Assembly (NCBI GenBank): GCA_030427885.1
Contig: JAUICM010000004.1
Span: 519,550 to 551,549 of the forward strand
Reading direction: 5' to 3'
Length of the DNA: 32,000 bases
Origin: Rhodothermia bacterium
Lineage (GTDB): Bacteria > Bacteroidota > Rhodothermia > Balneolales > Balneolaceae
The notes beneath the pieces were generated by a model that was not told the origin of the DNA, did not search any database, and was given only the letters and a program-made list of their open reading frames with translations. Both the position numbers and the translations under genes were made by a program. Positions within the stretch are counted from its first letter, which is position 1. Each line of letters begins with the position of its first letter. This document shows positions 8,625-22,137 of this stretch, piece after piece.

Positions 8625-8629
8625 GCCTG

Positions 8630-9247: not shown

Positions 9248-9248
9248 A

Positions 9249-9752: not shown

Positions 9753-10088
9753 ATGAACAAATATATGTTAATACTTTTTGAACACGAAGATGCGTACAAA
9801 AATATGTCTCCGGAGGATTACCAGGCTGAATTTGAAGCCCATGGAAAATGGATCCAGGAATTAGGAGAACATTATGTGAGTGGAGAGCCTTTGGAACAGC
9901 TGGCGAAATCAGTTAGAGGCAGGGAAAAACTGGTAACCGACGGTCCTTTTGTAGAGGCAAAAGAACTGGTAAGTGGTTTTTATATTCTAAATGCATCCAG
10001 CCTGGATGAGGCGACAGAGCTATCCAAAGGGTGTCCTATCCTCAGGCTCGGGGGAAGTGTTGAAGTTCGTGAGATCATGAAAATGTAA
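9753..10088 (+). CDS. YCII-related DGPF-domain protein
   Basis: 111-aa ORF with the signature DGPFVEAKELVSGFYIL. It sits immediately upstream of, and 1 nt from, an ECF sigma gene. Confidence 0.8.
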   Translation: MNKYMLILFEHEDAYKNMSPEDYQAEFEAHGKWIQELGEHYVSGEPLEQLAKSVRGREKLVTDGPFVEAKELVSGFYILNASSLDEATELSKGCPILRLGGSVEVREIMKM

Positions 10089-10089
10089 G

Positions 10090-11370
10090 TTGAATTCAAC
10101 ACAAAAAAATAGCACTTCGGTAATAGTTGAGCATCTTTTCCGACAGCAGTCGGGGAAGATGTCCGCTATTCTTATCCGTATCTTTGGATTTAATAATTCT
10201 GATCTTGTGGAGGATATTATTCAGGAGACCTTTCTTTCAGCCATGAAAGTGTGGGCTATGAAAGGAGAGCCCGAAAACCCGGAAGCCTGGCTCATGCTGG
10301 TTGCCAAGAATAAGATCATCAATGAGCTTAACAGGAAAAAGAGACAGTCGGAAAAGCGTGAAATGATCCATTATCAGGAAGCAGAAGAAAAAATAGAAGA
10401 GCTTTTTCTGGATCATGAGATCAAAGATAGCCAGCTCAGGGTTTTGTTTGGATGTTGTCACCCGGAGCTAATTCAGAAAACACAGATCATGCTCACCTTA
10501 AAAGTACTATCTGGTTTTGGAGACAGGGAGATCGCAAGTGCTTTACTGATGACCCCGGAAGCAGTGAAAAAAGCAATTTATAGGGCACGCAAACAATTGC
10601 AAAGATATCAGGATAGTATTGGCATTCCATTTCTAAGTGAAGTATCTGAGCGCTTTGAAACGGTACTGATGGTGGTATATCTGATCTTCAATGAAGGATA
10701 TAAGACCACCTCCGGAAAGGCAGTGATCAACGAAGACCTGTGTTATGAGGCGATCAGGCTGGCTTTTTTATTAGTGGAAATGAAAGGCGTAGAATCTGGA
10801 AAAGTATATGCATTGTTATCCTTAATGTATTTGAGTCTGGCCCGGTTTCCATCCAGAGTAAATGAACTAGGAGAGATGATCGGCATCGAAGATCAGGATC
10901 GTACAAAATGGAATAAGGATCTGATAGATGCAGGAGTTCACTTGTTACAACGGTCCAGAGAAAGCACTCAATTATCCAAGTATCATCTGGAAGCTACAAT
11001 AGCCGGAGTTCATTGCGCAGCCGAGAGTTACGAAAAGACCGACTGGAGAACCATCGTTTTTTGTTATGAAAAGCTCATGGAGATGGATAAATCGTATCTG
11101 ATAGCCATAAATCATGCTATTGCTGTAAGCAAGTTGAAAGGCCCTGAAGCTGGTTTAACAGAGTTGAAAGCGCTCGGAGACCAGATTCCGAAAGAGAATA
11201 ACTCATTACTATTTGCAGCAATAGCCGAAATGAATATGCAACTGAGAAATTATGAGGTTTCACGGTCATATTATCAGGTTGCACTCGATCAGGCTAAAAA
11301 GGATTCAGATAAAGTATTTCTGACCAGGAAAGTGATGGAGTGCGATAAAAAAAACTTCAGCAGGAATTAA
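10090..11370 (+). CDS. ECF sigma factor with long C-terminal TPR-like extension (ECF42-type)
   Basis: 426-aa ORF with a TTG start whose exact position is uncertain. Sigma region 2 (DLVEDIIQETFLSAMKVW...PENPEAWLMLVAKNKIINELNRKKR), region 4 (LKVLSGFGDREIASALLMTPEAVKKAIYRARKQL), then a helical extension of about 230 aa. Confidence 0.85.
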   Translation: MNSTQKNSTSVIVEHLFRQQSGKMSAILIRIFGFNNSDLVEDIIQETFLSAMKVWAMKGEPENPEAWLMLVAKNKIINELNRKKRQSEKREMIHYQEAEEKIEELFLDHEIKDSQLRVLFGCCHPELIQKTQIMLTLKVLSGFGDREIASALLMTPEAVKKAIYRARKQLQRYQDSIGIPFLSEVSERFETVLMVVYLIFNEGYKTTSGKAVINEDLCYEAIRLAFLLVEMKGVESGKVYALLSLMYLSLARFPSRVNELGEMIGIEDQDRTKWNKDLIDAGVHLLQRSRESTQLSKYHLEATIAGVHCAAESYEKTDWRTIVFCYEKLMEMDKSYLIAINHAIAVSKLKGPEAGLTELKALGDQIPKENNSLLFAAIAEMNMQLRNYEVSRSYYQVALDQAKKDSDKVFLTRKVMECDKKNFSRN

Positions 11371-11377
11371 TAAAAAA

Positions 11378-11403
11378 GGCCGCTTCCTGTCACAAAAGCG
11401 GCC
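11378..11403. terminator. hairpin terminator between convergent genes
   Basis: GGCCGC...14-nt loop...GCGGCC with an A-run on the plus side, which is a T-run on the minus strand. It best fits termination of the minus-strand kinase gene ending at 11459. The loop is long. Confidence 0.5.
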
Positions 11404-11458
11404 TTAACCATAAACATAACAACCAACCTTGATTTCAAAGCTGTTCAGGCTTTGTCAT

Positions 11459-13294
11459 CTAGTTTAAGAGATAAGCACTATGTGCTCCTTTCTTTTCTTT
11501 CTTACGAAATGTTATTGAGATACAGTTGTATTCATTTTGTTCAATCAATTTCAGTTTCCCGTTCAATTGTCTTACCAGTACTCCAATTAGTTCTGAGGTG
11601 AGCTGATCTTCCTGAGTATTTATAAAGTCAAAGACTGAAGTTTTATTCATATCACAGATCATCATACAAAACTCTTCATTTTCTACAGAGATACTTAACT
11701 GGATATCTAAAGTCCTGAGGCCTTGTTCAGCAGCTTTTTTGGCAGCAGTAGTGGAGATCTCATTCAGTAGCATTCCACAGGGGACAGCCTGATTAACATT
11801 CATGGAAATATGATTTCCGGGAACAGTAGTGAAGTTAAATCCTGAAGTGGTAGTCAGAGATTTTGCCATATCATCCACATAATCCATGAAGTCCACACTG
11901 GAGAAATCAGAGTGACTATAAAGTAACTCATGGATCTTAGCTATAGAATGAATCCTCGACTGAGTGAGTGAGAGATGCTTTTTCAATTCTTCATTCTTGT
12001 TATACATATTCTCGAGACTTATCAGTCCGGAGATGATGGCAAGGTTGTTCTTAACCCGGTGGTGCACTTCCTGTATCAGTACTTCTTTCTCTTTTAGTTG
12101 TTTTGTGATGATATTCCGATTCAAAACGTGTTCCGTCATATCTACATACACACAAAATGCAGCAACGACTTCTCCTTCGATCTTGATCGGAAACTTACTC
12201 AGAAGCACCGGTATAGCTCTCTTGTCCTTGGCGCGTCGTGTAGTTTCAATATTGATCTCTGAGCCGGCAAGAACCTGCTGAAGGAATAGTTGGTGCGCCT
12301 CATAGTCATCTTCCGGAGAGAGATATTTAAAAAGCGGATTACCCACTAGCTCTGTTTTTGAATAGCCGAATATCTTTTCGAAACTTGAATTCAGATCGAT
12401 GATGTTGCCTTCTTTATCGAGCACTACTACTCCATTAGCGGTAGAGTCGAATAACTGGCGATAGAAAAGTTCAGTGCGATCTTTTTCAGCAATGATCTCA
12501 GTTAATTTTTTATTTACCTGAATACGTTCGCTCAGATCTCTGAACGTACAGTGGATGAAAGTCTCTCCCATGTGATTGGATTGCTGAGTAATACTGATCT
12601 CAGCAGGCATTTTGGTATCATCATCTTTGGTAAACTCTGCTTCACCAAAATAAATCTCACTGAAAGAGTTTCCTGGGTTATCCTCATCAATGAGAACTTT
12701 TAGATCAAGCAGGTCACACAGCTTAAGATCCAATGCTTCTGATTTTGAATATCCTAATTGCTTACAAGCTGTTTCATTGAGGTCTATCACATTATGGTCA
12801 GTATCAGCGATGAGAATACCGTAGAATTTATTCTGAAATTGTTTTTGGTATTTTTTCTGATGTTCAGTGGCTGCTTTTTTGGAGAGGATCTCTCTTGTGA
12901 TTTCCTCGTTGGTTAAAAGAAAGTGCTTTTTACCTTCCATTGAAGTGATCTTCAAACGAAACCATTGATCGTTGGAAGATACTTGCTGATAGACCACTTC
13001 TCTGGTATCATTTTCGCCTGAAAGGACCGCTTTGCAAGCTACTATGATCTGAAGAGCGAACTCATTCCGGTTCACTAAAGGGTTTTGTAATTTCTGGAGA
13101 ATATTTTCGCCGAGTTTTGGGAAAGAAGAATAGCCATGATCCAGAATAGTATGATCTAACCAGAGTTTATTGTGAGCCACAACAGTTCCCTCATCATTCA
13201 GGATAGCAACCTGATAGGGAAGTGCACTCAGGATCTGGCTGTTTATCTTGCCGAGATCTAAAGAGGTGTAAATATTTGATTGTTGTTGCAGCAT
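11459..13294 (-). CDS. multi-PAS sensor histidine kinase, HisKA_2 type
   Basis: 611-aa ORF, cytoplasmic (no TM helices). About 3 PAS modules, H-box EVHHRVKNNLAIISGL, and a C-terminal ATPase-like region with N-box LLNEISTTAAKKA but poor G1/G2 boxes. Confidence 0.85.
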   Translation of the reverse strand: MLQQQSNIYTSLDLGKINSQILSALPYQVAILNDEGTVVAHNKLWLDHTILDHGYSSFPKLGENILQKLQNPLVNRNEFALQIIVACKAVLSGENDTREVVYQQVSSNDQWFRLKITSMEGKKHFLLTNEEITREILSKKAATEHQKKYQKQFQNKFYGILIADTDHNVIDLNETACKQLGYSKSEALDLKLCDLLDLKVLIDEDNPGNSFSEIYFGEAEFTKDDDTKMPAEISITQQSNHMGETFIHCTFRDLSERIQVNKKLTEIIAEKDRTELFYRQLFDSTANGVVVLDKEGNIIDLNSSFEKIFGYSKTELVGNPLFKYLSPEDDYEAHQLFLQQVLAGSEINIETTRRAKDKRAIPVLLSKFPIKIEGEVVAAFCVYVDMTEHVLNRNIITKQLKEKEVLIQEVHHRVKNNLAIISGLISLENMYNKNEELKKHLSLTQSRIHSIAKIHELLYSHSDFSSVDFMDYVDDMAKSLTTTSGFNFTTVPGNHISMNVNQAVPCGMLLNEISTTAAKKAAEQGLRTLDIQLSISVENEEFCMMICDMNKTSVFDFINTQEDQLTSELIGVLVRQLNGKLKLIEQNEYNCISITFRKKEKKGAHSAYLLN

Positions 13295-13413: not shown

Positions 13414-14064
13414 CTACTCAAAGATATTGTTTTCAATAGCATATTTAACCAATCCGGCAGTATTTTTGGCTCCGATCTTTTGCAACAGATTTCTACGGTG
13501 AGCATCAACTGTTCGTACACTTATAAATAGTTTATCAGCAATTTCCTGATTAGTGTACTCATCAACGATAAGTTGAAGTACATCTTTTTCACGATCAGTG
13601 ATCTGAATGAAGGGATCAGATGCCTTTCGTTTTAGCTCGGGTTGCACCAACTCTTCCAGGATTGATTTTGTGGCTTCTTCACCAAAATAATGACTCCCGC
13701 TATGGATCTTTCTGATTGCATCGATAAGTTCTTCCCTGCTGGAACTTTTAAGGATATATCCTGAAGCACCGGCATGGATCATGCTTCTTATGTGTTGGTC
13801 TTCATCAGACATGGTCAGGGCTAGTATCTTGATTTCCGGGTGCTCTTTTTTGATCTTCATGGTTGCTTCAATGCCATTCATCACTGGCATATTGATGTCC
13901 ATTATGATAAATCCCGGGTTCTTTTCAGATACCTGCTGAATCGTTTCTTTTCCATTTGAGGCTTCCCCGATAATATGGAATCCGGGTTCAGTTTCGATCA
14001 AAGACCGAATCCCATCCCGAACGATCTTATGATCGTCGGTTATAATGATCTCAATATTATCCAT
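13414..14064 (-). CDS. NarL/LuxR-family response regulator (REC + HTH_LuxR)
   Basis: I prefer the ATG at 14064 (MDNIEIIITDDH...) over the track's 14100 start. Receiver motifs are IIMDINMPVMNG and LALT; the C-terminal part is TDREKDVLQLIVDEYTNQEIADKLFISVRTVDAHRRNLLQKIG. The 8-nt overlap ATGGATAA with the upstream kinase stop supports this start. Confidence 0.9.
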   Translation of the reverse strand: MDNIEIIITDDHKIVRDGIRSLIETEPGFHIIGEASNGKETIQQVSEKNPGFIIMDINMPVMNGIEATMKIKKEHPEIKILALTMSDEDQHIRSMIHAGASGYILKSSSREELIDAIRKIHSGSHYFGEEATKSILEELVQPELKRKASDPFIQITDREKDVLQLIVDEYTNQEIADKLFISVRTVDAHRRNLLQKIGAKNTAGLVKYAIENNIFE

Positions 14065-16138
14065 TGTCCTCCTTGGTTTGAGTTCCGGAGACAGGCACAC
14101 AAATAGTCATCATTGTGCCCCGTTCAACATTTGTTTCCAGGTCCAATATTCCACCCATAATAAAAGTTCTGGTTTTAATACCTGTAAGACCGATCCCTGG
14201 GTTATAGTCAGGCCTGCTCACATCAAATCCTTTTCCGTTATCCTCAATGGTAAGTATCAGATCCGTTCGATCGCGGATCAGCTGAATGCTTACTTTTGTG
14301 GCTTCAGCATGTTTAACAATATTATTAAAACATTCCTGTACAATACGGTAAATGTTCAACTCAATTTTCTGAGAAAATCGTTCGTCGCCAATATTGTCAT
14401 AAAAATTGAAGATAAGATCAGTGCTTTTACCAAAACTGTCTACCAGATTCTGAATACTGGTCTTGAGGCCATTGTCCTCAACCACTCTCGGCATGAGATT
14501 ATGAGATATATTCCTTGTTTCTGACATTGCCTGTTTCAGATAGTTTATCCCGTTATCGAACAGCTCCTGGCTTTTACTATCCAGAGAACGGATCTTATCC
14601 TTAATGGCATCAAGATTCATATTTGAAGCCGCAAGAAGCTGTCCCAACCCATCGTGGAGGTCATGAGCCAGCCTGCGTCGTTCTCTGGTTTCTCCCTCGA
14701 TGAAAGAAGAGAGAGCTTTTTCCTCGGCTTCTCTTTGAGCAGTTATATCTTTGAAAACGATCATACGATAATCATTTTCGAGGTATTTCATTTGCTTCCC
14801 ACTTATTTCCACAGTTAACAAGGTTCCGTCTTTTGTGATATGTTTCCACTCAAGAAGGGGGGATGCGGTGTCCTTATATTTTTGAATGGTTTCAATCACT
14901 CTGTCGTGATCTTCTTCAACAAATAAATTAAGAAGGGATAGTCCCTGGATTTCATCTTTTGAGTATCCATATAAGTCCATGGCTGCTTCATTCATTTCAA
15001 TGATCTCGTAAGTTGCAGGATCATAAATACATTTTGGAAGGGGGCTTTTCGTAAAAAGAAGTTTATACTTTTCTTCAGATTCCCGAAGCAGAGTATCTGC
15101 CTTTTTTTCTTCGGTGATATTAACCATCGCACCAACCAGACCAATAGCTTTTTTGTGTACATCCCGAATAAAATATCCTTTGTCCCATACATGAATAACA
15201 TCTCCAGCCGGGTTAATGAGCCGGTACTCATGAAACCAGTGGGTTTGATCTGAATTTCTGATCTCTTCGAAATGATCATCCAGTTCTTCAAAATCATCGG
15301 GATGGATCACTGACTTGATCCAGGTAAAATTATTACCAATATGATCTGCATCGAACCCAAAATGTGTTTGCCACCCACGGCTCCACCAGGCTTTATCATT
15401 TACCAGATCCCATTCATAGAGTACGTCGTTGGTAGACTTTGAGATATATTCGAATCGGCGCTGTTCTTTAATTAGTGCCTCTTCGGTAATCCGCTGATCG
15501 CTAACATCCAGACCAATACCTATACTTATGTTTTCATCCAGTGCGATCCGACTCCACCGTTGATGTAGTATTCTCCCATCTTTCGAAGTAACCATGTATT
15601 CATCCCAGGATCCGTCGAATTTACGTACAGCTTTTTGGGCCCGCATTAATTCCTCATTATCCTTAATGAATGTTTCGAGTACATTCACGGATTGTATTTC
15701 TTCATTGGTCCACCCCAGCTTACGTTCATATTCCTTATTTATCTTAATGGTACCGGATTCTTTATCATACTGAAGTAAAAGAACAGGAATGGAATCAAAT
15801 ATTGCCGTGAGTAAAAGATTGGTTTGCTTCACTTCCTCTTCGCTTTCCTTTCTCAATCTGAATTCGCGATTGTTCATTGAGGTATAAAATGCAAAGATCA
15901 GGATGGGGTAGAAGATCAGGACAAGAAAGTCTTCGGCTGAATCGAAAAAAGTAGTGATCTCAAGGTGTTCAAGTAAGTTGAATCCCCCTATCAGAAAAAG
16001 TACCAGACCTCCGATGATCAGAAATGAGCTATTTAAGACTCCGGTTTTATTACGACGGATCAGAAGGAGTATAACCCCGCCAAGTGCAAAGAGGCAGCCG
16101 ATAAAATTTATCAGGGGAACCAGTTTATCCATTCTCAC
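14057..16138 (-). CDS. membrane PAS sensor histidine kinase, HisKA_3 (NarX/DegS-like) type
   Basis: 693-aa ORF. 3 N-terminal TM helices, about 3 PAS modules, H-box RRLAHDLHDGLGQLL, and HATPase_c (IVQECFNNIVKHA, DNGKGF, GIGLTGI). Confidence 0.9.
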   Translation of the reverse strand: MRMDKLVPLINFIGCLFALGGVILLLIRRNKTGVLNSSFLIIGGLVLFLIGGFNLLEHLEITTFFDSAEDFLVLIFYPILIFAFYTSMNNREFRLRKESEEEVKQTNLLLTAIFDSIPVLLLQYDKESGTIKINKEYERKLGWTNEEIQSVNVLETFIKDNEELMRAQKAVRKFDGSWDEYMVTSKDGRILHQRWSRIALDENISIGIGLDVSDQRITEEALIKEQRRFEYISKSTNDVLYEWDLVNDKAWWSRGWQTHFGFDADHIGNNFTWIKSVIHPDDFEELDDHFEEIRNSDQTHWFHEYRLINPAGDVIHVWDKGYFIRDVHKKAIGLVGAMVNITEEKKADTLLRESEEKYKLLFTKSPLPKCIYDPATYEIIEMNEAAMDLYGYSKDEIQGLSLLNLFVEEDHDRVIETIQKYKDTASPLLEWKHITKDGTLLTVEISGKQMKYLENDYRMIVFKDITAQREAEEKALSSFIEGETRERRRLAHDLHDGLGQLLAASNMNLDAIKDKIRSLDSKSQELFDNGINYLKQAMSETRNISHNLMPRVVEDNGLKTSIQNLVDSFGKSTDLIFNFYDNIGDERFSQKIELNIYRIVQECFNNIVKHAEATKVSIQLIRDRTDLILTIEDNGKGFDVSRPDYNPGIGLTGIKTRTFIMGGILDLETNVERGTMMTICVPVSGTQTKEDNG

Positions 16139-16388
16139 CCCTGTAATTGAGAACGCCTAAAAAGAAAAAAATACATGCGACAGTAAATGAGAGATGTTCT
16201 AGTACGTTCATAAGTTCGTACAATAGAACTCCTTCCAGTACAGTAAAAACTTCACTCACTACCAGGGCAGAAATACACGTAAGCCAGAAGCGCGGTAATT
16301 TAAATTTGTACCGTTTTGTCAGATTAAGCAGGAACACATATAAACTCGAGCAAAGGATCAGGCTTATTACTTCCGGATATTCAAACAT
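16125..16388 (-). CDS. small 3-TM membrane protein, or a detached N-terminal part of the downstream kinase
   Basis: 87-aa hydrophobic ORF, co-directional with the kinase ORF and overlapping its start by 14 nt. It shares an NxLEHL motif with the kinase's own TM region. Confidence 0.45.
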   Translation of the reverse strand: MFEYPEVISLILCSSLYVFLLNLTKRYKFKLPRFWLTCISALVVSEVFTVLEGVLLYELMNVLEHLSFTVACIFFFLGVLNYRGENG

Positions 16389-16457: not shown

Positions 16458-16489
16458 ATAAAAAAGCCACACCGTTTTAAGGAGTGGCT
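16458..16489 (-). terminator. rho-independent terminator (minus strand)
   Basis: Minus strand reads AGCCAC-13 nt-GTGGCT followed by TTTTTTAT, about 40 nt downstream of the small ORF stop at 16527. Confidence 0.55.
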
Positions 16490-16526: not shown

Positions 16527-16634
16527 TTATTTCTTACCAGATTTATTTGCTTGACCAACTTTTTTCTGAGCTACAGCATTTTTAGCTACAGGTTTTGATT
16601 GGGTTTGAGCAGGCTGTTTAAATTTGTTAGCCAT
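16527..16634 (-). CDS. hypothetical 35-aa lysine-rich peptide (MANKFKQPAQTQSKPVAKNAVAQKKVGQANKSGKK)
   Basis: Found by hand translation; it is below the ORF-track length cutoff. ATG is preceded by GGAG 8 nt upstream and followed by a dedicated terminator. No family recognised. Confidence 0.35.
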   Translation of the reverse strand: MANKFKQPAQTQSKPVAKNAVAQKKVGQANKSGKK

Positions 16635-17080: not shown

Positions 17081-18910
17081 ATGTTACGGTCCCGTATAAA
17101 ATGGCTATTTGCATTATGGTTTTCAATGCAGGGAGTTTGGGTATTCGCACAGACATTACCAGGTCAATCTGTGTCTCCAGACGTGCAGGAAGAAGCCGGA
17201 AAATATGAGCGCTATTATGAAGTAGTGCTCGATAACGCATTATCTGAATATTACAAAAAGGGGACTTTCATTGTTGATGTAAAGGCCTCACTTGACAGAG
17301 TATTGGTAGCTAAGGGATATGAAGTTGTAGAAGCTGAAGAACCAGTTGTTTTAGAAAATCTTCCAGGGCTCCCATATATACCGCCAAATTTAAGAGCATC
17401 TACTCAGCAAGGGCGCGACAGTTTGAAGGCATCAGGATTTGATGCACGCTTTAGATTAACCCAGCTCAATATTAAGGTGTTGGTAGATACATCATACAGT
17501 GATGAAGACCTGGAGTTTGTGGAAGAAGCAGCTACTTTGATTGCAAATGCAGATCGTTTCAGGGGAGACATAGTTAGCGTTGAAAAGAAAGTATTTCCCC
17601 GAAGTGCCCGGGCAATTGAGCAGGATGAACAGGCTAAGAATACAAAGCCGAAGTCTGCAAATCCTCAGGTTGAACGAATCGGCCAGACAAATGACAAGGC
17701 AGCAGCTGAGGAAAATAATTTTCTCGGAGTTGATTGGAATGACCCTCGTCAGTTAACCTATGTGATCGCGATTCTAGGGGTCTTGTTTTTAGTGGCATTG
17801 CTATATGCTCTGCTTAAAAAGCCATCGAAAAAATCAGAAGACCCGCCATATCCATATCCTGTGTTTGAAGGAATGGCCCCACCTGCTAAAGAAGTTGAAA
17901 AGAAAGAGGCTACAGGACCTGATGCCAAAACACTTGCCCAGTTTGAAGAGGATAAGACCTACCTGACGAATACCTGTATCAGTCATCCAAAAATGGTTGC
18001 CAATCTGATCGATCAATGGATCGCCAGTGATGAAGAACAGGGAGTTATTCGTGCGGTAAGGAATTTTGCCAGTGTGGATGAGAAATTGATAAGTGTACTG
18101 GAACCACATATTGGTGTAGAAACGTACGAAACTATCCGCTTTGGGCTGGCCAATACTGAGCCGATTCCTCTTGAGGAAAAGATAGAAGAGGCAAGGGCCT
18201 TCAGAAGAAGTATCCAGCAAATGAAGACCGCAACAAATACGGCTGATTCAGGATCGAATCTGTTTGATTTTGTATATCAGCTTACCGACCAGCAGCTGCA
18301 ACATTTGATGAAAGAGGAATCAGATGAGATGGTTGCGATATTATTAGCTCAGATTGCCGGTGAAAGAGCTGGAGGAATTCTTCAGAAGATGGACGACGAG
18401 AAAAGGATATCGATCCTGCTGAAAATGGGTAAGATCAATAACATTCCGATCTCAGTATATAAAAAGGTAGCTGCTCATTTCTCTAATAAAGCACTGTCTG
18501 TGTCTGATATGAAATATGTTGCGGCAGATGGAATCGATTCAATTCTAACCACTATTGAAACACTGCCTCTTGCCGAGCAGGATACGTACGTCCGTTCAAT
18601 TGCCGAGCAGGATCTGGAGCTGGCCAAAAAGATCAGGAAATTCTTTATTGGCTTTGATGATCTTCCTAAAGTTAAGGATGAGTTTGTACAAAGCGCACTC
18701 GAGGAGGTACAGACAGAGACGATCATTCTTGCATTGAGAACAGCACCTGCTGCAGTTCGAGAAAAAATTCTGAGGGTTCGCCCAAAAAGGGAGCAACAGT
18801 TAATTCTTTCTGAGATCGATAACCCATCTGAGGCCTCAAAAGCTGAAGTTGAAGATGCACAGAAAGTAGTTCTGTATGCGGTTAGAAGGAAAATGAAAAC
18901 AGAGGGCTGA
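17081..18910 (+). CDS. membrane-anchored FliG-like rotor protein with an N-terminal periplasmic FliF/YscJ-like ring motif
   Basis: 609-aa ORF.
- aa 1-24: signal peptide or TM helix.
- Periplasmic part ends in RLTQLNIKVLVDTSYSDEDLEFVEEAATLIANADRFRGDIVSVEKKVF.
- aa 225-245: TM helix.
- aa ~290-609 align along their length with FliG N/M/C domains: ...MVAILLAQIAGERAGGILQKM..., DGIDSIL, ELAKKIRKFFIGFDDLPKVKDEFVQSALEEV, ILALRTAPAAVREKIL, VEDAQKVVLYAVRR. Confidence 0.8.
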   Translation: MLRSRIKWLFALWFSMQGVWVFAQTLPGQSVSPDVQEEAGKYERYYEVVLDNALSEYYKKGTFIVDVKASLDRVLVAKGYEVVEAEEPVVLENLPGLPYIPPNLRASTQQGRDSLKASGFDARFRLTQLNIKVLVDTSYSDEDLEFVEEAATLIANADRFRGDIVSVEKKVFPRSARAIEQDEQAKNTKPKSANPQVERIGQTNDKAAAEENNFLGVDWNDPRQLTYVIAILGVLFLVALLYALLKKPSKKSEDPPYPYPVFEGMAPPAKEVEKKEATGPDAKTLAQFEEDKTYLTNTCISHPKMVANLIDQWIASDEEQGVIRAVRNFASVDEKLISVLEPHIGVETYETIRFGLANTEPIPLEEKIEEARAFRRSIQQMKTATNTADSGSNLFDFVYQLTDQQLQHLMKEESDEMVAILLAQIAGERAGGILQKMDDEKRISILLKMGKINNIPISVYKKVAAHFSNKALSVSDMKYVAADGIDSILTTIETLPLAEQDTYVRSIAEQDLELAKKIRKFFIGFDDLPKVKDEFVQSALEEVQTETIILALRTAPAAVREKILRVRPKREQQLILSEIDNPSEASKAEVEDAQKVVLYAVRRKMKTEG

Positions 18911-18913: not shown

Positions 18914-20017
18914 ATGAGCAGGCTATTTATCCTAATAATCACCCTCCTGTGCATAGAAACACTGGGGAGCTCAGCAGTGATTGCACAAACTCAGCCTCAA
19001 AGGCATGAGAACGGGGTAGCCTATTTGATGGATCAGATCACTGAGAGGATGAGCGAGGAATTTAATGACATTCCCGTGAACGTCCGCCGTAGCGCAGTTT
19101 ATAAGATCAATTACAGTGCGATGCGGTTTAGCCCGGAAGAAGTGGATTATATAAGGGGAGAGGTTGAATACGCTTTAAGGCAGTATGCAGGGCTTACCGT
19201 ACTATCGCCACCAGAATTGGAACCCAATGATAAGATGAAGATCATGGGGAGCGACAGTACACTCCAAATATTGAATGTCCGGGGTCGTTCACTTGCAGAT
19301 GTATCACCAGAGTTCCTGACAACGATAACTGATAAATACGGAGTTCAGGGATTAGTAGAATTAACAGTGCAAAGACGTTTTCCTGAGGGCCTGGTTTTAT
19401 TAATCCGTATGATGAATCCGAATTCCCGTGAGATCGTGTGGACCAAGAGCTTTGTTTCTAATCCAAAAGAACCCAAAGAAATTGTAGATAAAGGCCGGAC
19501 TTCAGTCGTTATTTTGGGTGCCGGAGCGTTAAAGGCAGAAAGCATTACTCAATATGATTCATCAGGAGTTGGGACAGATAGTACAATCAATAAAACGGTA
19601 CTTGATCTGCACTTAAGTTACACGTTCAGACAACCGCTGAACAAGAAGAATAGTGCGTATGTTGGTTTCAGTGCCGGGGCGCATATCCTGAAGAGCAGCG
19701 ATGCTGAAGAATTTTCAATGACTTTGGTGAAGTTTGGGGTAAACTACTACCAGGCAATCACGGCGAAGAATGAGGATATAAATGATTACCGGGTGATGTT
19801 TGTGTTTGGTGGTGAAGTGATGTTCCCACTTGGATCTAAAAGGAAGGGGGAACTATTTGTAGCAACTCCGGAGATCATGTTTAATTTGAGTAACAACCTG
19901 GGGCTTTCATTATATGGGAATGTGATTTTTGCTGGTGAAACCTTGCGACAGAGCAATGGAGATGATCTGACTTTTAACAAAATAGGCTATGGTGTTCGTG
20001 GTGTTATACGATTCTAG
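18914..20017 (+). CDS. secreted protein: periplasmic N-domain + predicted 8-stranded outer-membrane beta-barrel
   Basis: 367-aa ORF with a signal peptide. The C-terminal ~170 aa show eight amphipathic beta-strand segments ending in the OMP-type terminus GVRGVIRF. The N-domain weakly recalls the CsgG/LpoB/FlgO-like pattern. Starts 3 nt after the upstream stop. Confidence 0.65.
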   Translation: MSRLFILIITLLCIETLGSSAVIAQTQPQRHENGVAYLMDQITERMSEEFNDIPVNVRRSAVYKINYSAMRFSPEEVDYIRGEVEYALRQYAGLTVLSPPELEPNDKMKIMGSDSTLQILNVRGRSLADVSPEFLTTITDKYGVQGLVELTVQRRFPEGLVLLIRMMNPNSREIVWTKSFVSNPKEPKEIVDKGRTSVVILGAGALKAESITQYDSSGVGTDSTINKTVLDLHLSYTFRQPLNKKNSAYVGFSAGAHILKSSDAEEFSMTLVKFGVNYYQAITAKNEDINDYRVMFVFGGEVMFPLGSKRKGELFVATPEIMFNLSNNLGLSLYGNVIFAGETLRQSNGDDLTFNKIGYGVRGVIRF

Positions 20018-20624
20018 GAAAATATCGGCTATAGTTTTAGCAGCATTTATGCTGTTTTCAGGATGTAAGTCCGCTGAGCAATTGCAGCAAGAAGCAGAGG
20101 CTGCAAATAGTGCTCCCGAACAGGTTAACACTCAGCAACCGGTGCGCAGTACACAAGTTCAGCAACCAGCACCTTCACAATCTGGGTCAGGCACCGTGAC
20201 TGTTAACTATAAGAATAAAAGTTCAAGCATCAAGATCGACCTTGATCCAAATGAAGATCAGTTTTATCTGGATCTACGGGGACTTGCTCCCGAAGAGAAA
20301 GATTCCGTAGTGGTAGTGGATTCTACCATGCTGAAGAACAGGTCAACGGATATTCAAAAGCTGTTGGCAGGCTACCGAAAAGCACAGGACCTGTTCTACC
20401 TTGGTGAATATCGTCAGGCATTGGCTGAAGTAGATAAAACAATACAAATTCAGGAAACAGCTGACGCATATGCTTTAAAGGGAACAATCTTTTTTATGCT
20501 GGAAAATGTGACTGCTGCAAGAGCCAATTGGACAAAAGCTGTTCAAATGGATCCCAATATGCCGGTGCCAAGTATTCCGGAATTAGAAACTTTAATTGAT
20601 GAGATTCGGGGGGAAGAGAACTAA
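19989..20624 (+). CDS. TPR-repeat lipoprotein with Gln/Pro-rich linker
   Basis: 211-aa ORF. Lipoprotein signal MVFVVLYDSRKISAIVLAAFMLFSGC, a Q/P-rich spacer, and C-terminal TPR-like helices (YLGEYRQALAEVDKTIQI...AYALKGTIFFMLENVTAARANWTKAVQMDP). 29-nt overlap with the upstream ORF. Confidence 0.65.
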   Translation: MVFVVLYDSRKISAIVLAAFMLFSGCKSAEQLQQEAEAANSAPEQVNTQQPVRSTQVQQPAPSQSGSGTVTVNYKNKSSSIKIDLDPNEDQFYLDLRGLAPEEKDSVVVVDSTMLKNRSTDIQKLLAGYRKAQDLFYLGEYRQALAEVDKTIQIQETADAYALKGTIFFMLENVTAARANWTKAVQMDPNMPVPSIPELETLIDEIRGEEN

Positions 20625-21442
20625 TGAGGTTATCGATCACGAATTTATTAGGGGTAATTTTCAGTTTGGGTATGCTGATCTTTGGGGTTACCGAGATTAC
20701 CGGTGCAACTGATGTTTTGAATAATATCCCGGCACTTTCCGATTACCGGTTTTTGAATCTGCCCAGCTTATTTATTGTTCTCGGCGGGGTTCTGAATGCG
20801 GTATTTATTACCTATCAACCCAGATATGTAGGTAAAGCATTTGGAAGTATTTTCTTACTTTTCAGCCAGGCTAAGGCATCACACAAAACACTTTACACTG
20901 ATCTGGAAAATATACTTGAGTGGAGTGATGAGGTAAAAAAAGACCGGGTGAATGCACTCACAAAACTGGAAGATGAGTATGCGGCGGATGTTTCCGGGTA
21001 TCTTTTCTCATTGATGAGTACCAATTATTCTTCAGAAGATATCCAGAGTTTTGGCTCTAATCATATTGAAGAAGATTATTTCAGAAAGATCGTTACGGTA
21101 GATGTGCTCAGGGCGATGGGGGGTGCCGCTCCTTCATTTGGGATGTTCGGTACACTGTTCGGGCTTATAGTGATGCTGGGTGAATTGGAAAATCCATCCG
21201 GAATGGGTCCCGGACTTGCAGCCGCTTTGATCACCACACTGTATGGTATTTCACTGGCCCGCTTCATTTTTTATCCGGTCGCAGAAAAGATCAAGAATGT
21301 AGCTCAGCTTAATAAATTTCGCGAATATTTTATCCTGGAAGGAATATTGATGATCAATGACAAGAAGTCATCATTTTATATTCAGGATAAACTCACTACC
21401 TATCTGCAAAGAGATTTTAAGAAGTCTAAAGACGCAGAATAA
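20624..21442 (+). CDS. motA: MotA/PomA-family stator channel protein
   Basis: 272-aa ORF with 4 TM helices. Large loop between TM2 and TM3. APSFGMFGTLFGLI (TM3 Pro) and LAAALITTLYGISLARFIFYPVAEKI (TM4 Pro) match the MotA_ExbB core. TAATG overlap with the upstream gene. Confidence 0.85.
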   Translation: MRLSITNLLGVIFSLGMLIFGVTEITGATDVLNNIPALSDYRFLNLPSLFIVLGGVLNAVFITYQPRYVGKAFGSIFLLFSQAKASHKTLYTDLENILEWSDEVKKDRVNALTKLEDEYAADVSGYLFSLMSTNYSSEDIQSFGSNHIEEDYFRKIVTVDVLRAMGGAAPSFGMFGTLFGLIVMLGELENPSGMGPGLAAALITTLYGISLARFIFYPVAEKIKNVAQLNKFREYFILEGILMINDKKSSFYIQDKLTTYLQRDFKKSKDAE

Positions 21443-21444: not shown

Positions 21445-22137
21445 GTGCTATCAAGAAAAAACATAGGGCATCAGCATGCGGATGAGGAGCATGAAGAAGA
21501 CCAGGAATGGCTCCTGACCTATAGTGATATGATTACCTTGCTACTGGCTTTCTTTGCGATGCTGATCGCTGTCTCTTATGTGGATCTGAATCTTTGGGAG
21601 CAGATGAAACAAGGTCTTAGATCTGATATCAGTAAAGAGGAAAATGTAAAGACCCCGCTGGCTGAGGTTAAACAGGATCTGGATTCCTTATTGGTAGTTG
21701 AGAAAGAACAGGGACTGGTAAATATTCTTCTGGATAAAGACGGGATCAAGCTCTACTTCAACAGTAGTTATTTTTTCGATTCAGGGGAGGCCAGGCTCCT
21801 GCCAACGGGAGAAAGAATCATAGATAAGGTAACACAGGCAATGAATGCCCTGGACTTCTATAAGTTCAATGTGGATGTGGAGGGACATACTGATAATGTT
21901 CCAATAAATACACCCATTTTCCCTTCAAATTGGGAGTTATCGGTGGCAAGAGCTTCGGGAGTGGTGAAATATTTTATACAGGAAGGAATAGAAGGAGAGA
22001 GATTAAAGGCCTCAGGCTATGCCGATACAAAACCCATCGTTCCGCATCAGGATGAGCAGGGGAGAGATATTATTGAGAACAGAGCCCTTAACAGGCGTAT
22101 TGTGATCAGAATCTACTACCAGCTCGGACAGATATAA
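21445..22137 (+). CDS. motB: MotB-family stator protein (TM Asp + OmpA-like peptidoglycan-binding domain)
   Basis: 230-aa ORF with a GTG start. WLLTYSDMITLLLAFFAML carries the conserved channel Asp. C-terminal OmpA-like domain: VEGHTDNVPI...SNWELSVARASGVVKYF...GYADTKPI...NRALNRRIVIRI. Confidence 0.85.
   Translation: MLSRKNIGHQHADEEHEEDQEWLLTYSDMITLLLAFFAMLIAVSYVDLNLWEQMKQGLRSDISKEENVKTPLAEVKQDLDSLLVVEKEQGLVNILLDKDGIKLYFNSSYFFDSGEARLLPTGERIIDKVTQAMNALDFYKFNVDVEGHTDNVPINTPIFPSNWELSVARASGVVKYFIQEGIEGERLKASGYADTKPIVPHQDEQGRDIIENRALNRRIVIRIYYQLGQI

What the first reader, a model, noticed from the sequence alone, without database searches (positions are those of the whole stretch)
17081..18910. 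One polypeptide combining a FliF-like periplasmic ring motif, a single TM helix and a full FliG, with the FliM-binding EHPQ motif lost
Read directly from the ORF:
- aa 1-24: signal peptide or TM helix.
- aa ~60-172: periplasmic domain ending in RLTQLNIKVLVDTSYSDEDLEFVEEAATLIANADRFRGDIVSVEKKVF. As I recall it, the FliF/YscJ family closes its last ring-building motif with RLSVAVVV...(~25 aa)...RGD..V....F just before the membrane.
- aa 225-245: TM helix, followed by a Pro-rich linker.
- aa ~290-609: colinear with FliG. FliG_M-like: ESDEMVAILLAQIAGERAGGILQKMDDEKRISILLKMG. Inter-domain DGID corresponds to GGID. MFxF-like: FFIGFDDL. FliG_C-like: VQSALEEVQTETIILALRTAPAAVREKIL...KREQQLILSEIDN...VEDAQKVVLYAVRR.

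In canonical motors FliF and FliG are separate proteins in 1:1 contact. Here they appear fused into a minimal MS-ring/rotor subunit.

The position of the FliG EHPQ motif, which binds FliM, reads ESDE, arguing against a FliM/FliN switch complex. The torque-helix region keeps an Arg and acidic residues (KR....SEID), consistent with a stator interface.
Basis: partly seen in the sequence, partly recalled or inferred. Interest (0 to 1): 0.82.

Follow-up and report, generated by a model that had tools for sequence, protein, structure and literature searches.

The report
Non-flagellar FliF–FliG rotor with own stator
One gene encodes a cut-down flagellar MS-ring protein (FliF) fused to the whole rotor protein FliG and sits in a conserved five-gene cassette with its own MotA/MotB stator in bacteria reported to lack flagella, so it looks like a stand-alone ion-driven rotary motor of unknown purpose.

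Summary
ORF 17081-18910 (609 aa) reads, in order:
- signal peptide;
- periplasmic FliF-type RBM3/beta-collar domain (AlphaFold pLDDT 85; top 18 Foldseek hits are all FliF S-rings);
- one TM helix and a Pro-rich linker;
- the FliF C-terminal FliG-binding helix (0 of 20,000 shuffles match it);
- a complete three-domain FliG.

FliF's RBM1 and RBM2 are absent. The stator-contacting arginine (E. coli R281) is essentially invariant across 89 diverse relatives. The FliM-binding EHPQ/R160 surface is not conserved.

The gene is the first of a tightly packed five-gene cassette: fusion, a novel secreted ~360-aa probable outer-membrane protein, a TPR lipoprotein, PomA-like MotA, and MotB with plug, conserved Asp and a peptidoglycan-binding domain. 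The cassette is intact in 40 Balneolaceae loci and in four relatives 25-35% identical, always with different flanks. Its hosts include Gracilimonas tropica, reported as non-motile and lacking flagellar genes. Selection is strongly purifying.

I read it as a switchless, non-flagellar rotor-stator machine whose output is unknown. No description was found in the searchable literature. Ring formation and rotation are inferred, not shown.

The parts
17081..18910 (+). Whole FliF(RBM3)-TM-FliG fusion gene (609 aa)
   Evidence: ORF. Pfam FliG_M and FliG_C. Full-length conservation. dN 0.03-0.16 in the domains with saturated dS.
17081..17152 (+). Signal peptide (aa 1-24), probable SPase I site VFA|QT
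   Evidence: Read from the sequence: short basic n-region, hydrophobic core, small residues at -3/-1. 'AQ' is conserved at the end of the hydrophobic segment in family consensuses. Cleavage was not tested.
17177..17605 (+). Periplasmic FliF-type RBM3 + beta-collar domain (aa 33-175; alpha-beta-beta-alpha-beta with two ~20-residue strands)
   Evidence: AlphaFold pLDDT 85.2. The top 18 Foldseek PDB hits are all FliF S-ring/RBM3. Pfam YscJ_FliF_C matches 25 of 39 family members. hhalign to E. coli FliF 374-440: probability 92%, E 6e-7.
17360..17386 (+). Near-invariant LPGLPxxPP motif in the loop joining the two long strands (tip of the predicted collar hairpin)
   Evidence: P95, G96, P98 are invariant or at least 90% conserved in 107 and in 39 diverse sequences. 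Its position in the loop comes from the model's secondary structure. A role as a partner-contact site is inferred.
17753..17815 (+). Single transmembrane helix (aa 225-245), followed by KKPSKK (cytoplasmic side)
   Evidence: Hydropathy scan: the same TM position in nearly all family members. Modelled as a helix, pLDDT 80-86.
17816..17923 (+). Pro-rich, poorly conserved cytoplasmic linker (aa 246-281)
   Evidence: Read from the sequence. Low pLDDT. Highest dN, 0.35-0.46, measured on this linker together with the periplasmic linker aa 176-222.
17987..18037 (+). FliF C-terminal FliG-binding helix motif PKMVANLIDQWIASDEE (aa 303-319)
   Evidence: BLASTP runs continuously through an artificial E. 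coli FliF-C-terminus + FliG junction. Ungapped score 48 against 0 of 20,000 shuffles. The same motif sits at the same place in 48 of 89 diverse members. It is not significant alone in a PDB-wide search.
18038..18250 (+). FliG_N-like helical domain (aa ~320-390)
   Evidence: pLDDT 80-90. Aligned with FliG residues 35-113 and within full-length FliG Foldseek alignments.
18278..18520 (+). FliG_M domain (aa 400-480); the EHPQ position reads ESDE (18317-18328) and R160 is K448
   Evidence: Pfam FliG_M E 4.7e-8. hhalign to E. coli FliG, probability 97%. EHPQ/R160 are not conserved across the family.
18593..18898 (+). FliG_C domain (aa 505-606); torque helix at 18782-18823 with R570 (=R281), S577/E578 (=D288/D289) and D580
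   Evidence: Pfam FliG_C E 1.4e-21. 1.8 A rmsd to T. maritima FliG_C. The R281 equivalent is R78/K10/H1 of 89.
18914..20017 (+). p367: secreted protein with a conserved N-terminal domain and a probable outer-membrane beta-barrel C-terminal half ending GYG..(V/I)RF; novel family
   Evidence: No Pfam, NCBIfam or PDB match. Weak OMP_b-brl hits in 3 of 16 orthologs. An ortholog is present in every cassette, HMM E 1e-30 to 1e-126.
19989..20624 (+). TPR lipoprotein (211 aa; lipobox LFSG|C, Gln/Pro-rich linker, C-terminal TPRs); overlaps p367 by 29 nt
   Evidence: Pfam TPR_1, TPR_2, TPR_16. Conserved in all cassettes. The lipobox is read from the sequence.
20624..21442 (+). MotA (272 aa), PomA/MotP-like stator A subunit
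   Evidence: Pfam MotA_ExbB E 3.6e-18. NCBIfam flagellar stator models E 1e-32 against TolQ 2e-3. P173 and P222 equivalents are conserved. Loop charges: D93 46/46, K/R105 43/46, R/K108 44/46, E116 39/46, E118 41/46.
21445..22137 (+). MotB (230 aa) with plug, conserved channel Asp and OmpA-like peptidoglycan-binding domain
   Evidence: Pfam MotB_plug E 5.9e-15 and OmpA E 6.3e-17. NCBIfam MotD E 3.7e-49. The E. coli D32 equivalent is conserved in all 8 aligned sequences.

Best explanation
**What it is (shown).** The gene encodes a natural head-to-tail fusion of a truncated FliF to a complete FliG. FliF's TM1 is replaced by a signal peptide, and RBM1 and RBM2 are absent. RBM3/beta-collar, TM2 and the C-terminal FliG-binding helix are kept.

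The gene is the first in a translationally coupled five-gene cassette with:
- a novel probable outer-membrane protein (p367);
- a TPR lipoprotein;
- a flagellar-type (PomA-like) MotA/MotB stator that keeps its proton/ion-path residues, plug and peptidoglycan anchor.

**How it most likely works (inferred).**
- As in FliF, the periplasmic RBM3/collar domains assemble into a ring of a few dozen subunits just above the inner membrane.
- Because FliG is covalently attached 1:1, the same number of FliG units hang beneath the membrane. They form the upper part of a C-ring without FliM/FliN.
- MotA5B2 units anchor to peptidoglycan around this ring, perhaps positioned by the TPR lipoprotein and p367.
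- Ion flow makes MotA push on the FliG_C torque helix (invariant Arg570, acidic 578/580), so the ring turns.
- There is no FliM-binding surface, so the motor should have no CheY-controlled switch.
- There is no export gate, rod, hook or filament. The rotation must act on something in the envelope. The best candidates are p367 and the TPR protein, contacted through the invariant LPGLP tip of the collar.
- The physiological output is unknown.
For: **Domain identity**
- FliG.
- FliF RBM3/collar.
- FliF C-terminal helix at the junction.
- Topology.

**Stator**
- Family assignment and functional residues.
- The stator-facing Arg of FliG is essentially invariant (R78/K10/H1 of 89), while the FliM-binding EHPQ/R160 positions drift.

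**Cassette**
- Gene spacings in the window are +3, -29, -1 and +2 nt.
- The cassette is intact in all 40 Balneolaceae loci that hold enough sequence, with changing flanks.
- It is intact in four relatives at 25-35% identity in unrelated surroundings.
- Purifying selection: dS saturated, dN 0.03-0.16 in domains, FliG_C dN/dS 0.04-0.06.

**Hosts**
- Gracilimonas tropica DSM 19535 carries the cassette (L024).
- That species, like Balneola, is reported to lack flagellar assembly genes (PMC9909488). Gracilimonas species are listed as mostly non-motile (PMC12162075).
- No other flagellar gene lies in the 32-kb window.
Against: - Ring formation, stoichiometry, rotation and any MotA-FliG contact are inferred from homology. 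Nothing here tests them.
- The MotA loop is short, so E. coli R90/E98 cannot be mapped uniquely.
- D288 is Ser and K264/R297 are not conserved, so the interface differs from the canonical one.
- Related short proteins (RBM3 + TM without FliG, no MotAB nearby) exist in Cyclonatronum and Bacteroidales. The ring scaffold therefore can work without a motor, and the motor may be an accessory.
- The absence of canonical flagellar genes in the carrying genomes rests on one paper's KEGG survey, not on my own whole-genome check. One Balneolaceae lineage (Aliifodinibius) does have a near-complete flagellar gene set.
- The output or load is not identified. p367 has no recognisable fold by sequence.
Confidence: 0.62

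Rival explanations
1. Ring scaffold with a non-rotary, or only accessory, motor. The RBM3-TM protein is mainly a structural ring or anchor of an envelope-spanning complex. FliG and MotAB then act as a PMF-dependent conformational or energising device, as ExbBD-TonB and TolQR-TolA do, or as an assembly or regulatory module. They would not drive continuous rotation of the ring.
For: - Short homologs that end right after the TM helix have no FliG or MotAB nearby. They are still paired with a TPR gene and a conserved 825-1006-aa protein.
- Some variants have an N-terminal LysM domain, which should tether the subunit to peptidoglycan and be hard to reconcile with free rotation.
- In a second cassette type the fusion follows that ~1000-aa protein.
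Against: - In the cassette studied here, all the elements specific to torque generation are kept under strong constraint: the FliG torque-helix Arg, flagellar-type MotA with conserved loop charges, MotB plug, channel Asp and peptidoglycan anchor.
- MotA matches flagellar stator models at E 1e-32 but TolQ only at 2e-3.
- In every studied case, FliG_C is known only as a stator-driven rotor element (established knowledge).
Confidence: 0.2
2. It is a component of a conventional flagellum: an unusual fused MS-ring/C-ring protein working with flagellar genes located elsewhere in the genome.
For: - All homologous parts are flagellar.
- One Balneolaceae lineage has an almost complete canonical flagellar gene set.
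- JGI automatically annotates some relatives as 'flagellar motor switch protein FliG'.
Against: - RBM1 and RBM2 are absent. In FliF these surround the export gate. There is only ~200 aa of periplasmic sequence, and no YscJ_FliF (PF01514) hit.
- The FliM-binding motif is not conserved.
- The cassette brings its own stator and two non-flagellar partners, and it moves as a unit between unrelated neighbourhoods that contain no flagellar genes.
- Carriers G. tropica and Balneola are reported to lack flagellar assembly genes, and G. tropica is non-motile.
- No Fodinibius/Aliifodinibius genome appeared among the 42 loci, although that scan used narrow patterns.
Confidence: 0.07
3. It is a decaying remnant of a lost flagellum with no present function.
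For: The family Balneolaceae appears to have lost flagella in most lineages (PMC9909488).
Against: - The reading frames are intact in more than 120 clusters and 42 species.
- Synonymous sites are saturated while the domains keep dN at 0.03-0.16. dN/dS is 0.04-0.06 where it can be computed.
- Five-gene synteny is kept down to 25% identity.
- Key catalytic and contact residues are invariant.
Confidence: 0.03
4. It is a Zorya-like anti-phage defence system, which also uses MotAB homologs.
For: MotB matches PADLOC ZorB models at E 1.8e-20.
Against: - Those ZorB models are annotated 'MotB' in PADLOC and score below the flagellar MotB models, which reach 3.7e-49.
- MotA has no ZorA match and no long tail.
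- The fusion, p367 and the TPR protein match no defence model.
- The cassette sits in a stable chromosomal context, not in a defence island.
Confidence: 0.02

Closest known systems
Flagellar MS-ring/C-ring rotor (FliF + FliG) driven by MotAB/PomAB stators
   Same: - Homologous RBM3/beta-collar, TM2, FliF C-terminal helix, and FliG N, M and C domains in the same order.
- Flagellar-type MotA/MotB with plug, channel Asp, the two conserved prolines and a peptidoglycan-binding domain.
- The R281-equivalent torque-helix Arg is conserved.
   Different: - One polypeptide instead of two.
- A signal peptide in place of TM1.
- No RBM1 or RBM2.
- No conserved EHPQ/R160 FliM-binding surface.
- No FliM/FliN, export apparatus, rod, hook or filament genes in the cassette.
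- Two novel envelope partners.
- Hosts reported as non-flagellated.
- Scores fall well below the NCBIfam equivalog cut-offs (87 vs 226.7 for FliG; 113 vs 237 for the best MotA model).
Engineered FliF-FliG fusion proteins (Salmonella genetic fusions, from my own knowledge; the Vibrio FliF-FliG fusion solved as PDB 8z4d/8z4g)
   Same: FliF's C-terminus is covalently linked to FliG's N-terminus. PDB 8z4d is listed as 'Flagellar M-ring protein, Flagellar motor switch protein FliG' and matches this family's FliG part and its RBM3 part. These fusions show that a 1:1 fused subunit can still build an MS-ring.
   Different: Those are laboratory constructs of full-length FliF, working inside a complete flagellum. 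This one is natural, ancient, truncated and non-flagellar.
Other ring-building-motif proteins: injectisome SctJ/PrgK and SctD, sporulation SpoIIIAG
   Same: Alpha-beta-beta-alpha-beta RBM fold used to build periplasmic rings. PrgK appears as a weaker structural match (2y9j_Y, E 2e-3).
   Different: The best matches by about two orders of magnitude or more are FliF RBM3 with its long hairpin. Pfam's FliF-specific YscJ_FliF_C model is the only recurrent hit. None of those other proteins is fused to FliG or linked to MotAB.
Non-flagellar 5:2 ion-driven motors: GldLM/PorLM (T9SS, gliding), ExbBD-TonB, TolQR-TolA, AglRQS, ZorAB
   Same: An inner-membrane MotA/ExbB-family motor that delivers energy to the periplasm or outer membrane in bacteria without using a flagellum. 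T9SS cargo and PorZ genes lie next to some cassettes.
   Different: - In those systems the motor acts through an extended periplasmic B-subunit or partner (GldM, TonB, TolA), not on a FliG ring.
- Here the stator is of the flagellar clade (PomA/MotP-like, TolQ only 2e-3) and comes with a bona fide FliG target.
- There is no ZorA match.
Periplasmic stator scaffolds of elaborate flagellar motors (MotX/MotY T-ring, PflA/PflB, FlgP disk). This comparison comes from my own knowledge and was not tested.
   Same: TPR/Sel1-repeat and outer-membrane-associated proteins are encoded with stators. In those motors they position MotB/PomB around the rotor. The cassette's TPR lipoprotein and p367 are in the right compartment for such a role.
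   Different: No sequence similarity was detected to any solved structure or Pfam family beyond generic TPRs. Their role here is a guess.

Membership tests
FliG (flagellar rotor/switch protein) | Three-domain N-M-C architecture with ARM-like folds, GG-type linker and MFXF-type hinge | tested here: met
   - Pfam FliG_M and FliG_C are above their cut-offs.
- Colinear with Salmonella FliG residues 35-316.
- hhalign probability 97% to E. coli FliG 114-318.
- Foldseek aligns 308-322 columns to full-length FliG.
- DG at the GG position; FIGF at the MFLF position.
FliG (flagellar rotor/switch protein) | Conserved charged residues on the torque helix that contact MotA (E. coli K264, R281, D288, D289, R297) | tested here: inconclusive
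   - R281 maps to R570, essentially invariant in 89 diverse members.
- D289 maps to E578, or an acidic residue two positions later, in most members.
- D288 is Ser; K264 and R297 are not conserved family-wide.
- The core pair is kept but the full set is not.
FliG (flagellar rotor/switch protein) | EHPQR motif (EHPQ + R160) that binds FliM | tested here: not met
   The motif reads ESDE + K448 here. Family-wide only the Glu is kept (65/89). H, P and Q are replaced, and R160 becomes E, S or K.
FliG (flagellar rotor/switch protein) | Scores as an equivalog of FliG (TIGR00207 cut-off 226.7 bits); soluble protein encoded separately from FliF | tested here: not met
   It scores 87.2 bits against the 226.7 cut-off. 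The protein is membrane-anchored and fused to a FliF fragment.
FliF (flagellar MS-ring protein) | RBM3 with beta-collar (S-ring) | tested here: met
   - Model pLDDT 85 with alpha-beta-beta-alpha-beta topology and a long hairpin.
- The top 18 Foldseek hits are FliF RBM3/S-ring.
- YscJ_FliF_C matches 25 of 39 members.
- hhalign probability 92% to E. coli FliF 374-440.
FliF (flagellar MS-ring protein) | RBM1 and RBM2 domains (inner M-ring that houses the export gate) | tested here: not met
   Only ~200 periplasmic residues are present, and one RBM plus a disordered linker account for all of them. There is no Pfam YscJ_FliF (N-terminal) hit.
FliF (flagellar MS-ring protein) | Two transmembrane helices flanking the periplasmic region | tested here: inconclusive
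   TM2 is clear. The N-terminal hydrophobic segment has signal-peptide features (short basic n-region, VFA|QT, family-wide 'AQ'). No dedicated predictor or experiment was available.
FliF (flagellar MS-ring protein) | C-terminal helix that binds FliG_N | tested here: met
   - PKMVANLIDQWIASDEE aligns with E. coli FliF's terminal PRVVALVIRQWINNDHE.
- BLASTP runs through the FliF/FliG junction.
- 0 of 20,000 shuffles reach the score, and the motif sits at the same position in 48 of 89 members.
- It is too short to be significant in a PDB-wide search.
Flagellar stator MotA/MotB (PomAB-type) | MotA with four TM helices, the conserved prolines (E. coli P173, P222) and a charged cytoplasmic loop; MotB with channel Asp (D32), plug and OmpA-like peptidoglycan-binding domain | tested here: met
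   - Pfam MotA_ExbB, MotB_plug and OmpA.
- P173, P222 and D32 equivalents are conserved.
- Loop charges are conserved in 46 MotAs.
- The best NCBIfam matches are flagellar stator models, though below their equivalog cut-offs.
Flagellar stator MotA/MotB (PomAB-type) | Works on the rotor of a flagellum (genomic association with flagellar genes) | tested here: not met
   The only flagellar homolog near it, in 46 loci, is the fusion protein itself. Carrier genera are reported to lack flagellar genes.
Zorya anti-phage system | ZorA with a long cytoplasmic tail plus ZorB and type-specific ZorC/D/E/F/G proteins | tested here: not met
   There is no ZorA hit. Only ZorB models that PADLOC itself annotates as 'MotB' match. 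The other three proteins match no PADLOC model.
Tol-Pal / ExbBD-TonB / GldLM energisers | TolQ/ExbB/GldL-type A subunit with a TolA/TonB/GldM-type periplasm-spanning partner | tested here: not met
   TolQ scores E 2e-3 against 1e-32 for flagellar MotA models. No TolA, TonB or GldM families were detected in the cassette.

The most novel reading that the evidence does not exclude
The cassette encodes a free-standing, switchless, ion-driven rotary machine built only from the torque-generating core of the flagellum: an RBM3 ring, FliG and MotAB. It has no type III export apparatus and no axial structure. It turns or energises a novel outer-membrane/periplasmic partner pair (p367 and the TPR lipoprotein) in non-flagellated Bacteroidota. 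Depending on where its FliG, MotA and RBM3 branch relative to flagellar ones, there are two readings. It could be a surviving relative of the rotor-stator module that pre-dated its union with the secretion system. Or it could be the first known case of the flagellar motor core being repurposed for a non-flagellar envelope function.
Probability: 0.4. Interest if true: 0.93.

Novelty: new variant of a known kind. Interest (0 to 1): 0.85.

Why it matters
- **Flagellar origins.** FliG and flagellar-type MotAB are, as far as I know, only understood as parts of flagella. Arguments about how the flagellar motor arose suffer from the lack of any simpler, independently functional rotor-stator assembly. 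This cassette is a candidate for such an assembly: a rotor subunit that needs no separate FliF, FliM, FliN or export gate, with its own stator.
- **It is testable.** The cassette occurs in cultured strains (Gracilimonas tropica DSM 19535, Balneola sp. EhC07). Whether the torque-generating core works and has a use on its own can therefore be tested by tomography, genetics and biochemistry.
- **Unknown biology.** If it drives an outer-membrane or surface process, it points to an unrecognised energised envelope function in a widespread marine and saline bacterial group.
- **A minimal model motor.** It would offer a minimal motor for structural and single-molecule work.
- **Annotation.** Automatic pipelines label some relatives 'flagellar motor switch protein FliG' and their MotA/MotB are flagellar-type, so such genes can be misread as motility genes when inferring motility from genomes.

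Tried and rejected
- **Frameshift or assembly fusion:** rejected. The full-length architecture is conserved in more than 120 clusters, 42 species loci and about 100 distant clusters.
- **MgtE_N or generic ARM repeat instead of FliG:** rejected.
- **First AlphaFold run with 31 close homologs:** the periplasmic domain came out at pLDDT ~30 and was unusable. A 107-sequence diverse alignment solved this.
- **Homolog search with the periplasmic profile A3:** returned only 16 fragments. The search with the 89-member profile A5 returned only 20 unnamed hits. The word-index prefilter limits profile queries, so the phyletic spread beyond Bacteroidota/Balneolales remains unknown.
- **Cluster look-ups:** they gave few organism names.
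- **p367:** no match to PDB sequences, Pfam, FliF or the RBM3 family. The idea that it supplies the missing RBM1/2 is rejected. It is also unrelated to the ~1000-aa proteins of the second cassette type.
- **FliF C-terminal helix alone against the PDB:** chance-level hits only (AlkD, E 0.6). Its support comes from position and the permutation test instead.
- **Riboswitch or other RNA in the 690-bp upstream region or anywhere in the window:** none.
- **Sigma-70 promoter and terminator scan:** not above shuffle expectation.
- **Zorya:** rejected.
- **Scripts:** my first dN/dS script used the wrong frame and was redone.
- **Mapping E. coli MotA R90/E98:** ambiguous, because the loop is of the short type. 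Two alignments disagree.
- **Literature:** eight searches found no description of this module.

Full report
**1. The observation**

The window contains a 609-aa ATG ORF at 17081..18910 on the + strand. Pfam finds FliG_C (aa 506-606, E 1.4e-21) and FliG_M (aa 404-476, E 4.7e-8) above their gathering cut-offs. MgtE_N reaches only E 0.063. The FliG equivalog model TIGR00207 matches aa 380-603 at 87 bits, far below its 226.7-bit cut-off. The protein is therefore a clear FliG homolog but not an ordinary FliG.

The fusion is not an artefact:
- The same full-length architecture is found in more than 120 protein clusters at 57-100% identity.
- It is found in 42 loci from species-representative genomes, all Balneolaceae or unclassified Bacteroidota. 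These include the cultured Gracilimonas tropica DSM 19535 and Balneola sp. EhC07.
- An exhaustive search with only the non-FliG N-terminal 376 residues finds 148 representative clusters. Most are 580-690 aa long, with identity down to about 23%.
- A hydropathy scan shows the same layout in nearly all of them: an N-terminal hydrophobic segment, a TM helix near residue 200-250, then about 370 cytoplasmic residues.

**2. The cytoplasmic part is a complete FliG preceded by the tail of FliF**

- A profile of close homologs searched against all PDB sequences finds only FliG chains. The alignment to Salmonella FliG runs from residue 35 to 316.
- hhalign against E. coli FliG gives 97% probability over residues 114-318.
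- The AlphaFold model of the whole protein is confident for aa 280-385 (pLDDT 80-90) and for FliG_C.
- Its best Foldseek matches are full-length FliG chains aligned over 308-322 columns (E 1e-9 to 4e-8). FliG_C superposes on T. maritima FliG_C at 1.8 A. MgtE scores E about 1.

Residue mapping to E. coli FliG, with family-wide conservation in 89 diverse members:

| E. coli FliG | This protein | Conservation in 89 diverse members |
|---|---|---|
| EHPQ 125-128 | E413-S-D-E416 | only the Glu is kept (65/89) |
| R160 | K448 | becomes E, S or K |
| G194-G195 | D483-G484 | D52 and G61 of 89 |
| MFLF | F522-I-G-F525 | first and last positions aromatic or aliphatic (F42/Y22; F47/L12/I11) |
| K264 | R553 | not conserved (mostly hydrophobic) |
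| R281 | R570 | R78 / K10 / H1 |
| D288 | S577 | S42, D12 |
| D289 | E578 | acidic here (E32/D3), or at position 580 two residues later (E45/D8) |
| R297 | S586 | not conserved |

The stator-facing arginine is under strong constraint and the FliM-binding surface is not.

Just upstream of the FliG part, PKMVANLIDQWIASDEE (aa 303-319) matches the very last residues of E. coli FliF, PRVVALVIRQWINNDHE:
- One BLASTP alignment against an artificial 'last 70 aa of FliF + FliG' concatenation runs straight through the junction.
- The ungapped score is 48. None of 20,000 shuffled peptides reached it (mean 14, sd 4.2, max 43).
- In 48 of 89 diverse members the best match exceeds the 99th percentile of shuffles. 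Nearly all of those fall at the same place, between the TM helix and FliG_N.
- The motif is too short to find FliF in a PDB-wide search on its own. This point therefore rests on position and the permutation test.

**3. The periplasmic part is FliF RBM3 with its beta-collar**

- With close homologs only, the domain could not be modelled (pLDDT ~30).
- With a 107-sequence diverse alignment, the model reached pLDDT 85.2. It shows helix, long strand, loop, long strand, helix, strand. That is the ring-building-motif topology with an extended hairpin.
- The top 18 Foldseek matches in the PDB are all FliF MS-ring RBM3/collar (S-ring) structures from Salmonella and Vibrio (E 3e-7 to 9e-6, probability 1.00).
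- OsmC/Ohr proteins and the injectisome protein PrgK follow at about 1e-3.
- TM-scores are moderate (0.46-0.55 on the target). This is expected when a free monomer with a long hairpin is compared with subunits in a ring.

Sequence evidence agrees:
- Pfam's FliF-specific YscJ_FliF_C model matches 25 of 39 diverse family members scanned individually (best E 2.3e-6). No other family matches more than one. Two members pass the gathering cut-off.
- The only PDB sequences found by the domain profile are FliF (E 0.065 and 0.44).
- hhalign of the 89-member profile to E. coli FliF aligns the final beta-alpha-beta (VQRLSVAVVV...EKRGDSLNVVNSPF, residues 374-440) with 92% probability and E 6e-7.

RBM1 and RBM2 are absent. 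One RBM plus a disordered acidic linker account for the ~200 periplasmic residues. An LPGLPxxP motif in the loop joining the two long strands is nearly invariant across the family. That suggests a conserved contact at the tip of the collar.

The N-terminal segment has the features of a cleavable signal peptide, and a conserved 'AQ' ends it across the family. The mature protein is probably single-pass, with the N-terminus outside.

**4. Genomic context: a five-gene cassette with its own stator**

The next four genes on the same strand follow at spacings of +3, -29, -1 and +2 nt:
- **p367 (18914-20017).** It has a signal peptide, a conserved N-terminal domain and a C-terminal half with alternating hydrophobicity ending GYG..(V/I)RF. 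It has no Pfam, NCBIfam or PDB relatives. Only weak outer-membrane beta-barrel hits appear, in 3 of 16 orthologs.
- **TPR lipoprotein (19989-20624).** It has the lipobox LFSG|C.
- **MotA (20624-21442).** It matches flagellar stator models (PomA, MotP and the like) at E 1e-32 to 1e-29, but TolQ only at 2e-3.
- **MotB (21445-22137).** It has MotB_plug and OmpA domains, and its best match is flagellar MotD at E 3.7e-49.

Stator residues:
- The MotB channel Asp (E. coli D32) and MotA P173/P222 equivalents are conserved.
- The MotA cytoplasmic loop carries strongly conserved charges in 46 cassette MotAs: D93 46/46, K/R105 43/46 (aligned with E. coli R90), R/K108 44/46, E116 39/46, E118 41/46.
- The exact R90/E98 equivalents are ambiguous.

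Conservation of the cassette:
- The five genes occur together in all 40 Balneolaceae loci with enough sequence, while the flanking genes differ.
- The same five-gene order is kept in four relatives whose fusion proteins are only 25-35% identical in the N-terminal part (L048, L049, L052, L053). Their surroundings are unrelated.
- Their ~360-aa genes are p367 orthologs (HMM E 1e-30 to 1e-126).
- dS between the window and orthologs is saturated. dN is 0.03-0.16 in the folded domains and 0.35-0.46 in the linkers. Where it can be computed, dN/dS for FliG_C is 0.04-0.06.

**5. Not part of a flagellum, as far as can be told**

- No other flagellar gene lies in the window or next to any cassette examined.
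- A comparative genomics paper on Balneolaceae states that Balneola and Gracilimonas tropica DSM 19535 lack flagellar assembly genes. The Aliifodinibius group has a near-complete set (PMC9909488).
- G. tropica carries the cassette (L024), and Gracilimonas species are listed as mostly non-motile (PMC12162075).
- I could not scan the whole carrier genomes myself.
- The PADLOC defence library gives only matches to ZorB models annotated 'MotB', for MotB alone, and nothing for the other four proteins. Zorya is therefore excluded.

**6. Wider family**

A second cassette type places the fusion after a run of small genes, some of them DUF4402, and a conserved 825-1006-aa protein with a CarboxypepD_reg-like domain and C-terminal TPRs. 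It is followed by MotA-MotB (L050) or by a TPR gene at a contig end (L045). One MAG (GCA_039819115.1) carries both cassette types (L040 and L045).

Short relatives consist of (LysM-)RBM3-TM only, with no FliG and no MotAB nearby. They occur in a Bacteroidales MAG and in Cyclonatronum proteinivorum (CYPRO_2783), next to the same large-protein family. The RBM3 ring scaffold is therefore older or more versatile than its association with the motor.

**7. Interpretation**

*Shown:*
- domain identities and topology;
- residue conservation;
- operon structure and cassette conservation;
- purifying selection.

*Inferred:*
- The RBM3 domains form a FliF-like ring.
- The covalently attached FliG units form a FliM/N-less ring beneath the membrane.
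- The MotAB units turn that ring.
- The motor lacks a CheY-type switch.
- The rotation acts on p367 and the TPR protein, or is scaffolded by them.

The main rival is that the ring is a static scaffold and the MotAB-FliG pair acts as a non-rotary or accessory energiser. The FliG-less short forms and the LysM variants give this some weight. A role in a conventional flagellum, a decaying relic, a defence system and an artefact are all poorly supported.

**8. Novelty**

Eight full-text searches found no description of a natural FliF-FliG fusion or of a non-flagellar FliG/MotAB cassette. [quoted passage not shown] The library does not cover subscription journals, so prior work cannot be excluded.

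All recognisable parts belong to a known machine, so I classify this as a new variant of a known kind. At the system level it is a torque core without a secretion system or axial structure, with new partners, in non-flagellated hosts. That is well outside anything I know to be described.

Noticed in passing
L045 (6903-12432), L050 (2259-13731); also L046, L047, L051: A second cassette type. A run of small genes (some DUF4402, one above the Pfam cut-off), a conserved 276-aa family and a conserved 825-1006-aa protein (CarboxypepD_reg-like domain, C-terminal TPR-like stretch) precede the RBM3-TM(-FliG) gene. In L050 MotA-MotB and a response regulator/kinase pair follow. The large proteins are homologous to each other but not to p367.
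   Followed up: partly
L040 and L045 (both from assembly GCA_039819115.1, Bacteroidota MAG J06638_3): One MAG carries both cassette types. The two systems are therefore paralogous and presumably not redundant.
   Followed up: no
L046/L047 (P0228, Bacteroidales MAG), L051 (P0256 = Cyclonatronum proteinivorum CYPRO_2783); P0220, P0237, P0246; P0226: There are short relatives with only (LysM-)RBM3-TM, no FliG and no MotAB nearby. In Cyclonatronum the next gene encodes a SPOR-domain protein. P0226 (807 aa) combines LysM, RBM3, TM and FliG. A peptidoglycan-binding LysM on a supposed rotor subunit is hard to reconcile with free rotation.
   Followed up: partly
L048 (4237-9265) and L049 (917-4840, 12642-17153): Type IX secretion-related genes lie directly beside two distant cassettes: a PorZ-like beta-propeller and two large Por_Secre_tail cargo proteins. 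This hints at a link to surface or T9SS biology, but it is not seen in the window.
   Followed up: no
window 13414-16388 (- strand): A PAS/HisKA_3 histidine kinase (14057-16138) and a LuxR-type response regulator (13414-14100) are transcribed divergently from the cassette. An 87-aa membrane ORF (16125-16388) overlaps the kinase start. The same kinase/regulator pair lies upstream of the cassette in L003, L005 and L006 but not in other loci. It is a possible, non-universal regulator.
   Followed up: partly
window 16527-16634 (- strand), hairpin 16465-16489 with its T-run (A-run on the + strand) to 16460: A small ORF encodes a 35-aa, very basic peptide (MANKFKQPAQTQSKPVAKNAVAQKKVGQANKSGKK). A GC-rich hairpin plus T-run follows it on the minus strand. 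It sits inside the 690-bp region upstream of the fusion gene. No Rfam match.
   Followed up: no
window 24105-32000 (+): A bacterial alpha-2-macroglobulin (1843 aa) is immediately followed by a PBP1C-type penicillin-binding protein. This is a known gene pairing. In L001, L002, L004 and L038 the same pair lies upstream of the cassette instead of downstream, which illustrates how the cassette's flanks rearrange.
   Followed up: partly
window 17360-17386 (aa 94-102 of the fusion): The LPGLPxxPP motif is the most conserved feature of the whole periplasmic domain across ~100 divergent sequences. It lies in a loop of lower model confidence (block pLDDT 70-81 against 95-98 for the strands). No counterpart in FliF was identified here.
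   Followed up: partly
window 27-4421 and 5320-13294: The rest of the window is ordinary metabolism and signalling: methylmalonyl-CoA mutase with MeaB, acyl-CoA dehydrogenase, an FGE-sulfatase-type protein, SufE, several PAS sensor kinases and an ECF-type sigma factor with DUF6596. There is nothing flagellar or chemotactic.
   Followed up: yes
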